Shown here: in pieces, positions 27,264 to 30,468 of the stretch
How the letters are laid out: every line of letters begins with the position of its first letter
Numbering within the stretch: position 1 is the first letter of the stretch
From: Calditrichaceae bacterium
GTDB lineage: Bacteria; Calditrichota; Calditrichia; Calditrichales; JBFXGD01
Length of the DNA stretch: 64,000 nucleotides
NCBI GenBank assembly: GCA_050173015.1
Contig: JBFXLE010000006.1
Coordinates: 64,001 to 128,000, forward strand
Direction: 5' to 3'
Translations under genes and position numbers: made by a program
The notes under the pieces: generated by a model
Database searches by the model: none
Told to the model about the DNA's origin: nothing
Seen by the model: the letters and a program-made list of their open reading frames with translations, nothing else

Positions 27264-28442
27264 ATGATGGTCACAGAAAAAGTATATTATCAGGACAGCT
27301 ATTGTTATCAAATTGACGCCACCGTCCTGGATATACAAAGGGATCAGGACGGTATATGGGTTCTTCCCGACCGGACAATATATTTTCCCGGGGGAGGCGG
27401 ACAATCCGGGGATGAAGGAAAAATAAATGGTACAGCGGTGCGCGGGATCAGGATTGAAGATGATAAAATCTGGTACGGTCTCGCAACTGAAGCTGATTTT
27501 TCAGTCGCTGAAAAGGTCGGAATGGAAATTGACCGGCAAAAACGCCTGTATAATATGCGCCAGCATACCGGCCAGCACCTTCTGTCCCATGTGCTCGATC
27601 AGTTGGGACAAAAAACCGTGTCGGTGCATCTTGGCGATTCCTATACTTTAATCGAAGTTGAAGGCCCATGGCCTGATGAGAACCTGTTAAAAAAAGCTGA
27701 AGAAGAAAGCAACGCGTACATTCGCAAATCCATACCGGTGACCTGCCAGTGGGTCAGCCGTGAAGATATCCATAAGTTTCCTTTGCGGCGACCTGCGGGA
27801 GAGTGGCAGACACTTCGACTGGTTGAGATTGAAAATACAGATTATTCGGCGTGCGGCGGAACCCATGTAAAAAATACGGCGGAGATAGGATATATTAAAA
27901 TAACCGCTCTTGAAAAAATACGCGGGAGAGCGAGAATAAAGGCGCTAACCGGCCGGAAAGCCGATGATTATTTTGAACAGCTGCATTTACTTAATACCGC
28001 TCTAAAAATTGAGTTAAGTTCCGAAACGGAGCATATTGTTGAAAGAGTCCGGGGACTGAAAAGCGATGTCGAAGGGCTTGGGAAAGATGTAGAATTTTAT
28101 CGGCAAACATATATTGACAGCAAATGCCGGGATATTATAAACGAGACTGAATCGGACCCTATTCTGATTGTTTACCGGTTATCCGAAGGTAAACTTGCCG
28201 ACGCGCGGGATCTTGCCAGGACACTGTCCGGTAAGTTTGCAAAAATTGCTTTTATTACTTTTGCCGATCGTTTTTATCTGACTGCGCCGGTGGATTCAAA
28301 GTTCAGCACGCGGAACTTTTTAAAATCCCACGGCGCATCCCTCAATCTTCGCGGCGGCGGGCCTGAAGGATTTGCGCAGGGGATTGCAGAGGGGAGTGAC
28401 ACGGAAAAAATAAAAGAAATGATCTTAAATCAAATATTTTAA
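27264..28442 (+). CDS. Alanyl-tRNA editing protein AlaX with DHHA1-like C-terminus
   Basis: YFPGGGGQSGD, HTGQH and CGGTH (Zn ligands); RGGG...AQG. Confidence 0.88.
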   Translation: MMVTEKVYYQDSYCYQIDATVLDIQRDQDGIWVLPDRTIYFPGGGGQSGDEGKINGTAVRGIRIEDDKIWYGLATEADFSVAEKVGMEIDRQKRLYNMRQHTGQHLLSHVLDQLGQKTVSVHLGDSYTLIEVEGPWPDENLLKKAEEESNAYIRKSIPVTCQWVSREDIHKFPLRRPAGEWQTLRLVEIENTDYSACGGTHVKNTAEIGYIKITALEKIRGRARIKALTGRKADDYFEQLHLLNTALKIELSSETEHIVERVRGLKSDVEGLGKDVEFYRQTYIDSKCRDIINETESDPILIVYRLSEGKLADARDLARTLSGKFAKIAFITFADRFYLTAPVDSKFSTRNFLKSHGASLNLRGGGPEGFAQGIAEGSDTEKIKEMILNQIF

Positions 28443-28470: not shown

Positions 28471-29025
28471 ATGAGCGGAATTAAAGGTTTGGTTGTTTTA
28501 TCGCGTTTCGATTATATAGAAAAAACATACGGAAGGGAAAAACTGGTTCAATTCTTTGATAGTGTTAAAAGTGAAGATAAAGATCAATTGACTCAGCCGA
28601 TCGGTATTTCAAAGGAATATCCTGATGAATATCTTAAAATTATTGATGAGTACATTCAGAAAGAATTTTTTGCCAATGATGAATCATCTTTTCTTCTACT
28701 TGGAAACTGGAACGCCGGTCATCTGATGCCCCGTTATTTTCAGATCTACATGGATGACAAAAATCCTCCCGGGTTTTTGAACCAGATGGCAAATATGCGA
28801 AAAATTTTAATCGGAAGCGGAGAAATGAAAATCAGGGATCTTGATTCAAATTCCTATGATGTGATTATCGACTACGGCCAGACCTTTCTTGAATCGGTTC
28901 GGCTCAGTGAGCTTGGATTTATTGAAGAAGGTCTGCGACTATGCGGAGCAAAAAAAGTAAAAACTGAAATAAAGAGATTAAATGAAATAACGGCAGAGTA
29001 TAAAATTGGCTGGGTATTAAAATGA
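28471..29025 (+). CDS. Hypothetical V4R/H-NOX-like ligand-binding protein (DUF2378/TIGR02265-like)
   Basis: N-terminal IKG..V...FDYIEKTYG, central EYP and LG.WNA, C-terminal GFIEEGLRLCGAK.V...YKIGW pattern; ATGA overlap with the next gene. Confidence 0.5.
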   Translation: MSGIKGLVVLSRFDYIEKTYGREKLVQFFDSVKSEDKDQLTQPIGISKEYPDEYLKIIDEYIQKEFFANDESSFLLLGNWNAGHLMPRYFQIYMDDKNPPGFLNQMANMRKILIGSGEMKIRDLDSNSYDVIIDYGQTFLESVRLSELGFIEEGLRLCGAKKVKTEIKRLNEITAEYKIGWVLK

Positions 29026-29699
29026 AACCTTATGCTGTAATTATTGCTGACATAAAAGGCTCCCGAAAGATGCATGACAGGGAGAGGTACGAATGGCAGC
29101 TATTTCTAAAATCTGCGATTGTTCAGGTAAACGAAAACTGGGCTGATTGTATCGATGCTCCATTTATGATCACTAAGGGTGATGAATTTCAGGGGGTTTT
29201 GGTTAATGTGGCGGATGTGCATGCGGTTATGATGGAATTCGAACGTCTTTTGTTCCCGTTGATCATGCGTTACGGAATAGGATACGGCAGCATTCAGAAA
29301 ATGGGCAGTAATATTCCGATCGAGATGGACGGACGGGCATTTCATCGCGCGAATGCGGCGCTCAATACCTGTAAAAAGAAAAAATGCGTGGTTCAGTTTA
29401 GCACTGGTGATGATTGGTTTGATTTAAATATTAACACTTTTTATCAGTTGATTTACGCGATAAAAGGACGCTGGAGCGAGATCAATTTTAAGAGATACTG
29501 GAAATATAAAGAGATGGGAACCTATGAACGTGTGGCGGAACAGGAAGGCGTATCACCGCAGGCCGTATGGGATTCGCTACACAATGCCAGCGCTGTGGAT
29601 GTGATAAACGCCGAGCAGGTATTGATGAAGATTATCCAAAAGAAAGAGAAGGAAATTACTCCGGAACTTGCTGATAAAACCTTGAAATCTGGCGGATAG
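29022..29699 (+). CDS. SatD-family protein (nucleotide-cyclase-like palm domain + C-terminal HTH)
   Basis: YAVIIADIKGSR, FMITKGDEFQG, RYGIGYG and MDGRAFHRA motifs; HTH TYERVAEQEGVSPQAVWDSL. Confidence 0.82.
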   Translation: MKPYAVIIADIKGSRKMHDRERYEWQLFLKSAIVQVNENWADCIDAPFMITKGDEFQGVLVNVADVHAVMMEFERLLFPLIMRYGIGYGSIQKMGSNIPIEMDGRAFHRANAALNTCKKKKCVVQFSTGDDWFDLNINTFYQLIYAIKGRWSEINFKRYWKYKEMGTYERVAEQEGVSPQAVWDSLHNASAVDVINAEQVLMKIIQKKEKEITPELADKTLKSGG

Positions 29700-30468
29700 A
29701 CAGCACGAGCGTCGCAAGGGCCGCTATCACCACGATTGGCGATACATGTTCTCCCCAGAGATACCATCCTGCTTTTTCATCAATTTTATAATTTATAAAA
29801 ATCAGAGCCAGAAAATTATTTGTGCCGTGCACAATGATGGATGGTATGATAGAATCAGTCCGCCAGGCCAGAAATCCCATAATAATCCCCATCAAGAAGA
29901 TTTGAATCGCCCAGTAAGGATTCATGTGAATTATGGTCCAGGTCAGTGATGAGAGCATCACCGCCCGTGTTGCATCACCCTTTTTTTCCAGAGTTACCTG
30001 AAAAAATCCTCTGAATAATCCTTCTTCGGCAATGGCCGCAACGAATACAGCGCCGCCGATAACAAGCGCCCAATCAGTCCATCCTTCAACAACAAGTGGA
30101 CGCATCTGTTCAAGGATCCAATCCGGAATGGGGATGATCCGGCTCAACAGACGGTCAAGCTCATCACCGACAATGCTAAGCGAAATACCGGTTGTGACGC
30201 TTAGGAAAATGACTTCACGGGAAACCGGATTGAAACGGAAAAGTGACTGAATAGGATATTTTTTCGCTCGGGAATACAGCAAGGGTATAATCAGAAAGAG
30301 GCTTCCTCCAAAAATAAAAAATAGCCGGGTATTTTTTTCTATTGATTCCGGTGAGATCACGGTGCTTGATACAAATGCATAGACCGCCGCCAAAACGATC
30401 AGGCCGGCAAATACCGCCAGTACAAGTATCAGCGCTTCAACCGGTTCAGGATAAGATTTATTATTCAT
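29656..30468 (-). CDS. CPBP (CAAX/Abi) intramembrane glutamic protease
   Basis: AEEGLFRG, WTIIH and IIVHGTNN motifs; multiple TM helices. Confidence 0.9.
   Translation of the reverse strand: MNNKSYPEPVEALILVLAVFAGLIVLAAVYAFVSSTVISPESIEKNTRLFFIFGGSLFLIIPLLYSRAKKYPIQSLFRFNPVSREVIFLSVTTGISLSIVGDELDRLLSRIIPIPDWILEQMRPLVVEGWTDWALVIGGAVFVAAIAEEGLFRGFFQVTLEKKGDATRAVMLSSLTWTIIHMNPYWAIQIFLMGIIMGFLAWRTDSIIPSIIVHGTNNFLALIFINYKIDEKAGWYLWGEHVSPIVVIAALATLVLSIRQISRFYQQVPE

What the first reader, a model, noticed from the sequence alone, without database searches (positions are those of the whole stretch)
28471..29699. Coupled V4R/H-NOX-like sensor + SatD cyclase-fold/HTH protein: candidate undescribed signalling module
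Seen: two ORFs overlap by ATGA (29022-29025). The second has both palm-domain metal-binding Asp motifs (IIADIKGSR and TKGDEFQG), a DGRAFHRA segment placed like the class III cyclase catalytic helix, and a C-terminal HTH. The first resembles soluble H-NOX/V4R-fold proteins but lacks the YxSxR heme motif. Known: SatD belongs to the nucleotide-cyclase/GGDEF-like fold and has no established biochemistry; as I recall it usually pairs with a DUF3307 membrane protein, which is absent here. H-NOX proteins regulate adjacent cyclases or kinases. Inference: a ligand sensor controls a nucleotide-synthesising or nucleotide-sensing DNA-binding protein, like a split soluble cyclase with direct transcriptional output.
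Basis: partly seen in the sequence, partly recalled or inferred. Interest (0 to 1): 0.72.

Follow-up and report, generated by a model that had tools for sequence, protein, structure and literature searches.

The report
Partnerless SatD beside heme-less H-NOX
Two unstudied genes, one for a protein predicted to fold like a nitric-oxide sensor but without its heme anchor and one for a likely DNA-binding protein with a predicted nucleotide-cyclase-like front half, sit side by side across one bacterial phylum, but each is kept in genomes that have lost the other, so they are more likely old operon neighbours than a two-part signalling switch.

Summary
Both ORFs and the ATGA overlap are real. ORF1 is predicted to have the H-NOX fold (Z 16.6) but lacks the heme histidine and YxSxR. 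ORF2 is a SatD protein whose palm fold ties between class III cyclases, GTP cyclohydrolase III and GGDEF. It keeps both metal aspartates, but on my motif register the class III catalytic Arg and base-reading Lys/Glu are absent.

In 86 Calditrichota genomes the two genes are adjacent in 61 of 61 that hold both. Functional coupling is nevertheless weak. SatD is found alone in 16 genomes and ORF1 alone in 5, and SatD evolves no faster without ORF1. Flanking genes stay put almost as well (66/75, 51/55). ATGA is this genome's commonest junction. No pair was found outside the phylum.

The distinctive part is this SatD. It is a strongly conserved phylum-wide paralogue without the membrane partner and operator array of ordinary SatD (a second, ordinary copy is in this genome), and it has a changed recognition helix. 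Best reading: a stand-alone, likely nucleotide-sensing regulator, with ORF1 a co-transcribed neighbour. The scan reached this reading before on another genome (e1-7895606).

The parts
28471..29025 (+). ORF1, 184 aa: heme-less H-NOX/V4R-fold protein related to DUF2378 (TIGR02265). No proximal His, no YxSxR; the V4R-type Cys cluster of relatives is reduced to C158.
29022..29699 (+). ORF2, 225 aa: SatD (PF16264) of the partnerless Calditrichota-core clade. Predicted palm domain (about residues 1-148) plus a predicted HTH.
29022..29025 (+). ATGA overlap of the ORF1 stop and the SatD start. Exactly -4 only in this genus among the loci measured; the commonest junction type in this genome.
29040..29066 (+). 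Strand 1 motif IIADIKGSR with D10 (likely first metal ligand) and S14, both invariant.
29172..29195 (+). Hairpin TKGDEFQG with D54 (likely second metal ligand); GDEFQ invariant in 50 of 50 orthologues.
29322..29363 (+). E101-MDG-x-AFH-R-A-N-A-A-L. On my register E101 is at the class III base-specificity position, H108 at the catalytic Asn and A112 (variable) at the catalytic Arg.
   Evidence: register inferred by hand
29478..29585 (+). Predicted three-helix HTH. Recognition helix S/T-x-Q-A-V-W/C-D, against S-Q-P-A-V-S in most ordinary SatD.
27264..28442 (+). Upstream AlaX-like alanyl-tRNA editing gene (context). Adjacent to ORF1 in 51 of 55 genomes that hold both.
29656..30468 (-). Convergent CAAX/Rce1-like protease gene (context, synteny control). 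Adjacent to SatD in 66 of 75 genomes that hold both.

Best explanation
This SatD is a phylum-wide, vertically inherited paralogue that lacks the membrane partner and upstream operator array of ordinary SatD, and it likely works on its own as a one-component regulator that senses a nucleotide, while the predicted heme-less H-NOX gene before it is likely a co-transcribed neighbour rather than its controller. Shown: gene order, distribution, independent losses, invariant residues, and absence of the operator array. Predicted: palm plus HTH fold; H-NOX fold. Inferred: a SatD dimer holds a nucleotide (an NTP or a derivative) on Mg/Mn bound by D10 and D54, with R22, Q26, E101 and H108 reading the ligand. 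Ligand binding would move the two HTHs and switch DNA binding at sites other than the ATAA[CG]-N7-[CG]TTAT operator of ordinary SatD. Whether the site also turns the nucleotide over is open (about one in three); canonical cAMP, cGMP or c-di-GMP synthesis is unlikely. ORF1 likely binds an unknown small ligand in a heme-less pocket and acts on a target not identified here.
For: Distribution: core SatD in 77 of 86 genomes, ORF1 in 66, both in 61, SatD only in 16, ORF1 only in 5, neither in 4. Losses are clean. In single-contig G030 (98% complete) AlaX abuts SatD; in G044 and G045 ORF1 abuts the YjbQ gene that otherwise follows SatD in that family. The SatD tree groups by family and needs 7 changes of ORF1 state (at least 2 forced by well-supported branches; quick tree). 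No relaxation without ORF1: SatD identity to outgroups is 0.44-0.48 without and 0.43-0.49 with ORF1 (f4 against f1-f3), and 60 of 61 conserved columns stay at 80% or more in the 15 ORF1-less proteins. Controls: SatD-CAAX (convergent) 66 of 75, AlaX-ORF1 51 of 55. Ordinary SatD is followed by a membrane gene in 15 of 15 Calditrichota loci, 19 of 23 other loci and 9 of 10 in a second phylum. An operator array lies upstream of ordinary SatD and was the top hit of an unbiased genome scan; it is present at 0 of 58 core satD and 0 of 49 ORF1 upstream regions. D10, S14, R22, Q26, G53-D54, F56 and M102-D103-G104 are invariant across both SatD clades, archaeal-type loci included.
Against: The pair was never found apart when both genes exist (61 of 61; 56 of 62 informative metagenome loci carry ORF1). 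It survived replacement of the downstream neighbour in f5 and loss of the upstream neighbour in f7, while both control pairs do break. In one SatD-less lineage (G023, G024) ORF1 has changed three otherwise conserved aromatic residues and is the most diverged of its family (0.22-0.23 against 0.23-0.29); the other SatD-less lineage shows no such effect. Relatives of ORF1 are fused to a chemoreceptor and to a histidine kinase, so it is a plausible sensor. No DNA target for the core SatD was found, so its regulator role rests on a conserved predicted HTH and on its relatives. Most genomes are incomplete assemblies, and kin are not independent.
Confidence: 0.6

Rival explanations
1. Accessory sensor. 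ORF1 binds a small ligand and modulates SatD by direct contact, like a split one-component regulator (sensor + palm + HTH, as in CdaR/PucR proteins). SatD still works without it, so ORF1 can be lost.
For: Adjacent in 61 of 61 genomes; gaps of -13 to 4 bp throughout f1-f3 and f5. Losses are asymmetric (16 against 5), with a hint of ORF1 decay in G023/G024. H-NOX/V4R-like folds are the sensor domains of VirS, CdpR and DmpR. Foldseek aligns SatD end to end with the C-terminal fragment of the regulator Rv2242 (234 columns, E 4.6e-4, TM 0.29).
Against: No SatD surface relaxes when ORF1 is lost. No fusion appeared among the best 120 of 635 near-length hits, nor in a weak search of 421-2000 aa proteins. 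ORF1 is tied as closely to AlaX. ORF1-family genes in a second phylum sit among unrelated housekeeping genes.
Confidence: 0.22
2. ORF1 switches on a nucleotide-synthesising SatD, like a split soluble cyclase whose product or conformation drives the HTH.
For: Class III cyclases are the top fold matches (3et6 Z 13.4, rmsd 3.0, 135 aligned). Both aspartates are invariant. mCpol/OptS shows that a minimal palm with two aspartates (D6, D57) and no full GGDEF motif can make cyclic dinucleotides (PMC12657218, passages).
Against: The fold ties with GTP cyclohydrolase III (Z 13.0) and GGDEF (Z 12.1). The class III Arg and base-reading Lys/Glu are absent on my register, and the GGDEF FKxxND..GH..GD guanine motif is absent. 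ORF1 lacks heme ligands. Independent losses as above.
Confidence: 0.1
3. The core SatD works in trans with the ordinary SatD cassette (its membrane protein, or as a heterodimer).
For: Both paralogues coexist in this genome and in many f1-f4 and f6 genomes. One metagenome locus (L145) joins a core N-half to an ordinary-type C-half followed by the membrane gene.
Against: All 16 f7 genomes show only one SatD, the core one, with its conserved residues intact. L145 may be an assembly chimera.
Confidence: 0.08

Closest known systems
SatD family (Pfam PF16264), ordinary SatD plus membrane-protein cassette, named after the streptococcal sat operon
   Same: Over the Pfam cut-off; same invariant D, S, R, Q, GD(E)F and MDG residues and HTH position.
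   Different: Only 25-35% identical to ordinary SatD. No membrane gene downstream, no ATAA[CG]-N7-[CG]TTAT array upstream, a changed recognition helix, and a fixed core locus in 77 of 86 genomes of one phylum.
Class III adenylyl/guanylyl cyclases, including H-NOX-regulated soluble guanylate cyclase
   Same: Palm fold (Z 12-13.5), two aspartates in strand 1 and the hairpin, and a helix after the G of MDG.
   Different: Asn is replaced by His, the Arg position is variable, and the base-reading Lys/Glu is absent (inferred register). It carries an HTH. Its neighbour has no heme ligands.
GGDEF diguanylate cyclases and mCpol/OptS (Panoptes)
   Same: GDEF hairpin aligns with GG(D/E)EF; two-aspartate palm as described for OptS (PMC12657218, passages).
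   Different: No GGDEF guanine-binding motif. No mCpol family match at SatD loci (2 of 86 genomes matched, elsewhere). No PADLOC match. No membrane effector at this locus.
H-NOX gas sensors (PF07700)
   Same: Whole-domain fold match: 4u99 Z 16.6, rmsd 2.5, 167 aligned; Foldseek top hits are all H-NOX.
   Different: No conserved His (at most 16 of 44 in any column; 7 of 44 near the heme-His helix), no YxSxR in place, and no adjacent kinase, chemoreceptor or canonical cyclase.
DUF2378 / TIGR02265 and V4R-type domains
   Same: 28 of 44 orthologues touch DUF2378 and 14 of 44 touch V4R at E up to 0.1; nearest Atlas models are DUF2378-like, TM 0.80-0.88.
   Different: This protein is under the DUF2378 cut-off (15.5 against 22.2 bits) and has lost the Cys cluster that f5, f6 and f8 orthologues keep. 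DUF2378 is described as of unknown function and myxobacteria-only (PMC9257966, passage).
CdaR/PucR-type regulators (GGDEF-like domain + HTH, e.g. Rv2242)
   Same: Same domain order; end-to-end Foldseek alignment, E 4.6e-4.
   Different: TM only 0.29, rmsd 13.5; no fused N-terminal sensor. That their palm is catalytically degenerate is recalled, not tested.

Membership tests
SatD (PF16264) | Score over the curated cut-off | tested here: met
   72 bits against 29
Ordinary SatD cassette | Membrane-protein gene directly downstream | tested here: not met
   A convergent CAAX or YjbQ gene follows core SatD; the membrane gene follows ordinary SatD in 15 of 15, 19 of 23 and 9 of 10 loci
Ordinary SatD cassette | Upstream ATAA[CG]-N7-[CG]TTAT operator array | tested here: not met
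   0 of 58 core satD and 0 of 49 ORF1 upstream regions; 16 of 37 ordinary ones, with a matrix built from those same sites
Class III nucleotide cyclase | Palm fold | tested here: met
   3et6 Z 13.4, rmsd 3.0, 135 aligned; tied with GTP cyclohydrolase III and close to GGDEF
Class III nucleotide cyclase | Two metal-binding aspartates | tested here: met
   D10 and D54 in 50 of 50; aligned to the cyclase aspartates by hhalign at low probability
Class III nucleotide cyclase | Transition-state Asn and Arg; base-reading Lys/Glu | tested here: not met
   H108, A112 (A25, E9, R4 of 50) and I50 at those positions; register set by hand from the G motif and helix start, not by superposition
Class III nucleotide cyclase | Makes a cyclic nucleotide | not testable with these tools
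   Needs an enzyme assay
GGDEF diguanylate cyclase | GG(D/E)EF plus the FKxxND..GH..GD guanine site | tested here: not met
   KGDEF aligns, the guanine-site motif is absent
mCpol / Panoptes | mCpol family match and adjacent effector | tested here: not met
   PF18182 matched 2 of 86 genomes, not at SatD loci; no PADLOC hit
H-NOX | H-NOX fold | tested here: met
   Z 16.6, TM about 0.7
H-NOX | Proximal His and YxSxR | tested here: not met
   No conserved His; YxSxR in 2 of 44 rows, both at unrelated positions
H-NOX | Binds heme or NO | not testable with these tools
   Needs spectroscopy
DUF2378 / TIGR02265 | Score over the curated cut-off | tested here: not met
   15.5 against 22.2 and 16.6 against 25 bits; related by orthologue hits and structure
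DNA-binding HTH regulator | HTH that binds a defined site | tested here: inconclusive
   Predicted helices and invariant G166/T167/Q180/A181; only weak profile hits; no site found
Obligate two-gene signalling module | Genes gained and lost together | tested here: not met
   16 SatD-only and 5 ORF1-only genomes of 86

The most novel reading that the evidence does not exclude
The Calditrichota ancestor rewired a SatD: it dropped the membrane partner and self-operator and took on a soluble heme-less H-NOX as a detachable sensor. The result would be a core, phylum-wide switch in which an unknown ligand controls a palm domain that binds or makes a non-canonical nucleotide and drives its own HTH. 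This would be the first biochemical role for both SatD and the DUF2378-like clan.
Probability: 0.2. Interest if true: 0.75.

Novelty: new variant of a known kind. Interest (0 to 1): 0.38.

Why it matters
SatD has a conserved two-aspartate palm site from bacteria to archaea, and I found no biochemistry for it (the library lacks most subscription papers). The Calditrichota-core paralogue is soluble, partnerless and strongly conserved (44-74% identical outside this genus), so it is a clean test protein for what SatD binds or makes. Setting it beside the ordinary copy in the same genome, whose operator array is now located, makes ligand and DNA-binding assays direct.

Tried and rejected
Complex prediction of SatD(1-212) with ORF1: no verdict, score 0.00 in both runs; not used as evidence either way. 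RNA runs: no RNA holder listed. Sequence searches of the PDB gave nothing significant for either protein; the broad ORF1 profile gave MopR (E 9e-4) and a probably spurious FliG hit. hhalign of SatD against cyclase and GGDEF alignments gave probabilities of only 0.6-2.4%, and one of three misplaced the hairpin, so the residue register is manual. Fusion search: none among 421-2000 aa proteins, a weak search; the best 120 of 635 near-length hits were 209-254 aa; none of the long ORF1-family hits carries a SatD half. De novo palindrome search upstream of 26 core satD and 13 ORF1 regions gave no consistent motif, whereas the control recovered the ordinary operator. A genome scan for triple dyad arrays gave only the ordinary satD promoter and two AT-rich hits. 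Promoter and terminator scans were at chance level. Y177F in SatD-less ORF1 looked like a lost contact but also occurs with SatD present and is F or Y in the wider family. Defence role: no PADLOC hit, housekeeping context. DUF3307 (PF11750) did not match the membrane partner here, so that label is recalled. mCpol structures were not listed in the fold searches, which excludes nothing. Paper searches for SatD with cyclase, and for heme-less H-NOX/V4R, found nothing relevant. The careful tree did not finish; the quick tree was used. In one search my threshold mislabelled 7 ordinary-type loci as core; I removed these and L161 before counting (72 of 80 kept: 56 pair, 6 no ORF1, 10 uninformative).

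Full report
Observation. The window holds ORF1 (28471-29025, 184 aa) and ORF2 (29022-29699, 225 aa), overlapping by ATGA. They close a same-strand run of seven genes: GWxTD protein, an oxidoreductase-like ORF (label recalled), methyltransferase, SufS-like, AlaX-like, ORF1, SatD, with gaps under 40 bp. A CAAX protease gene converges on them. Contigs of three runs of one study show no indel or joint. Homologue names point to Calditrichota.

Folds. The ORF1 model (pLDDT 94) matches H-NOX domains (4u99 Z 16.6, rmsd 2.5, 167 aligned; then VirS Z 10.8 and V4R-type proteins about 8). No column of 44 orthologues has a conserved His, and YxSxR occurs only twice, at unrelated places. Aligned with a true HNOB protein, the heme-His helix of ORF1 has no His. 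Orthologues touch HNOB (32 of 44), DUF2378 (28) and V4R (14) weakly. The Atlas neighbours are DUF2378-like clusters, and the wider family has 1558 representatives, with fusions to a chemoreceptor and a histidine kinase. So it is a heme-less member of a sensor-type clan. ORF2 is SatD (72 bits). Its model (pLDDT 93) matches class III cyclases (Z 13.4), GTP cyclohydrolase III (13.0) and GGDEF (12.1) over residues 1-149; these are near ties. The HTH was not covered by those searches and rests on predicted helices, weak profile hits and invariant residues.

Active site. D10, S14, R22, Q26, GDEFQ, E101, MDG and AFH are invariant in 50 of 50 core orthologues. Most are also invariant in ordinary SatD from bacteria and archaeal-type loci. 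Against 16 class III cyclase domains of related genomes, setting G104 on the G of GDxVN puts H108 on the catalytic Asn, a variable A112 on the Arg, E101 on one base-specificity position and I50 on the other. This register is mine, from motif and helix start; hhalign was too weak to fix it. The GGDEF guanine motif is absent. The site therefore looks kept for a metal-nucleotide ligand but not for canonical cAMP, cGMP or c-di-GMP synthesis. Non-canonical catalysis is not excluded: OptS uses two aspartates in a minimal palm (PMC12657218, passages; PMC12657230, passages).

Is the pair a unit? In 86 genomes, core SatD occurs in 77 and ORF1 in 66. Both occur in 61 and are adjacent in all 61, three of them at contig ends with one gene partial. 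Metagenome loci agree: 56 of 62 informative core loci carry ORF1. Against a unit, first, SatD stands alone in 16 genomes and ORF1 in 5, with clean deletions in G030, G044 and G045; I inspected the loci of 15 of the 16, and G029 and G047 lie near contig ends. Second, the SatD tree groups by family, with about 7 changes of ORF1 state, and SatD is no more diverged without ORF1. Third, SatD-CAAX is adjacent in 66 of 75 and AlaX-ORF1 in 51 of 55, some misses being contig breaks. Fourth, the junction is -4 only in this genus, -13 to 4 in f2, f3 and f5, and 21-415 bp in f6-f8 (one exception of 3 bp); in all 9 f8 loci read, ORF1 overlaps AlaX instead. ATGA is the commonest junction here (119 of 1770). 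Fifth, outside the phylum none of 23 ordinary-type SatD loci has an ORF1-like neighbour, and 0 of 10 such genomes had an ORF1-family match. In a second phylum (167 genomes, centre G093) 21 have the ORF1 family and 59 have SatD; 4 have both, never on one contig, and none has the core clade. ORF1-family genes there sit among unrelated housekeeping genes (35 neighbours scanned). One hint in favour of coupling: ORF1 of G023/G024 has lost three conserved aromatics, but the other SatD-less lineage has not diverged.

What is distinctive. This genome has a second, ordinary SatD followed by a membrane gene, as in 15 of 15 Calditrichota loci, 19 of 23 others and 9 of 10 in the second phylum. Following a lead from earlier scan notes, I found ATAA[CG]-N7-[CG]TTAT sites at 27-29 bp spacing upstream of ordinary satD. 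An unbiased genome scan picked that promoter first. The core clade has no such sites (0 of 58; ORF1 0 of 49), no other shared palindrome, and a different recognition helix. So the core SatD is a partnerless, retargeted paralogue under strong constraint.

Mechanism. Most likely (0.6) core SatD is a stand-alone regulator. A dimer would bind a nucleotide on D10/D54-held metal, and this would switch its HTH on unknown sites; ORF1 is a co-transcribed gene with its own ligand and target. An accessory-sensor link (0.22), an ORF1-controlled synthase (0.1) and action in trans with the ordinary cassette (0.08) remain. Gene order, distribution and residues are shown; folds are predicted; ligand, DNA binding and dimer are inferred.

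Literature. SatD is annotated only through the streptococcal acid-tolerance operon (PMC10326533, passages; search listing). DUF2378 is called of unknown function (PMC9257966, passage). My searches found no paper on the pair or on SatD biochemistry; among the 11 listed, no Panoptes or mCpol paper mentions SatD. No supplements were read. The CdaR/PucR and DUF3307 labels and the class III residue roles are recalled. An earlier scan note on another genome reached the same reading; it is not independent support.

Verdict. Real genes, correct folds, a real phylum-wide adjacency, but weak support for a coupled module. New variant of a known kind; interest 0.38.

Noticed in passing
G000:C16:61190-61293 (L002, upstream of 1489): Four ATAA[CG]-N7-[CG]TTAT-like sites at 29 bp spacing upstream of the ordinary satD and its membrane gene; top hit of an unbiased genome scan; the same motif occurs before archaeal-type satD loci (L154, L160). 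Likely an autoregulatory operator array.
   Followed up: yes
L002:1489-2897; L167-L181; L336-L345: The ordinary SatD plus membrane-protein cassette resembles the synthase plus membrane effector layout of Panoptes/Pycsar, but had no PADLOC hit. The membrane protein (116-260 aa; conserved G.LER...K...RF...FAEY.L.G.L.S) matched no Pfam family here, DUF3307 included.
   Followed up: partly
L145:2598-3929: SatD with a core-type N-half (102 of 112 identical to a core copy up to MDGPAFH) and an ordinary-type C-half, preceded by ORF1 and followed by the membrane gene: recombination between paralogues at the shared motif, or an assembly chimera.
   Followed up: partly
G000:C31:12820-13317 (L162:4288-4875); L080, L163-L165: Stand-alone ORF1-family paralogues in this and four other genomes, none beside a SatD.
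   Followed up: partly
L326:1417-3510; P0172; P0074: ORF1-family domain fused to GAF-PAS-HisKA, to a methyl-accepting chemotaxis protein, and as three tandem copies; supports a sensor-type role for the clan.
   Followed up: partly
alignment A1, ORF1 residues 144-175: A V4R-type Cys cluster (3-5 Cys in the last 50 residues) is kept in f5, f6 and f8 orthologues but reduced in most f1-f3 and f7 proteins, this one included.
   Followed up: partly
L148 / L197:3001-3660: A SatD without membrane partner in a Desantisbacteria record, with a tandem duplication of about 58 bp just upstream; a possibly independent partner loss.
   Followed up: no
L053, L054, L056, L057, L069-L071, L119, L124, L128: In several f6 and f7 loci large HAMP/PAS histidine-kinase genes lie just upstream of ORF1, AlaX or SatD on the same strand.
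   Followed up: no
window 29656-29699: The 3' ends of satD and the convergent CAAX protease gene overlap by 44 bp; the scan found no terminator for the plus strand there.
   Followed up: no
L166:3277-4388: Two tandem H-NOX-like genes in G068 beside a histidine kinase gene, the first a true HNOB match (145 bits); canonical H-NOX signalling exists in the phylum apart from this locus.
   Followed up: partly
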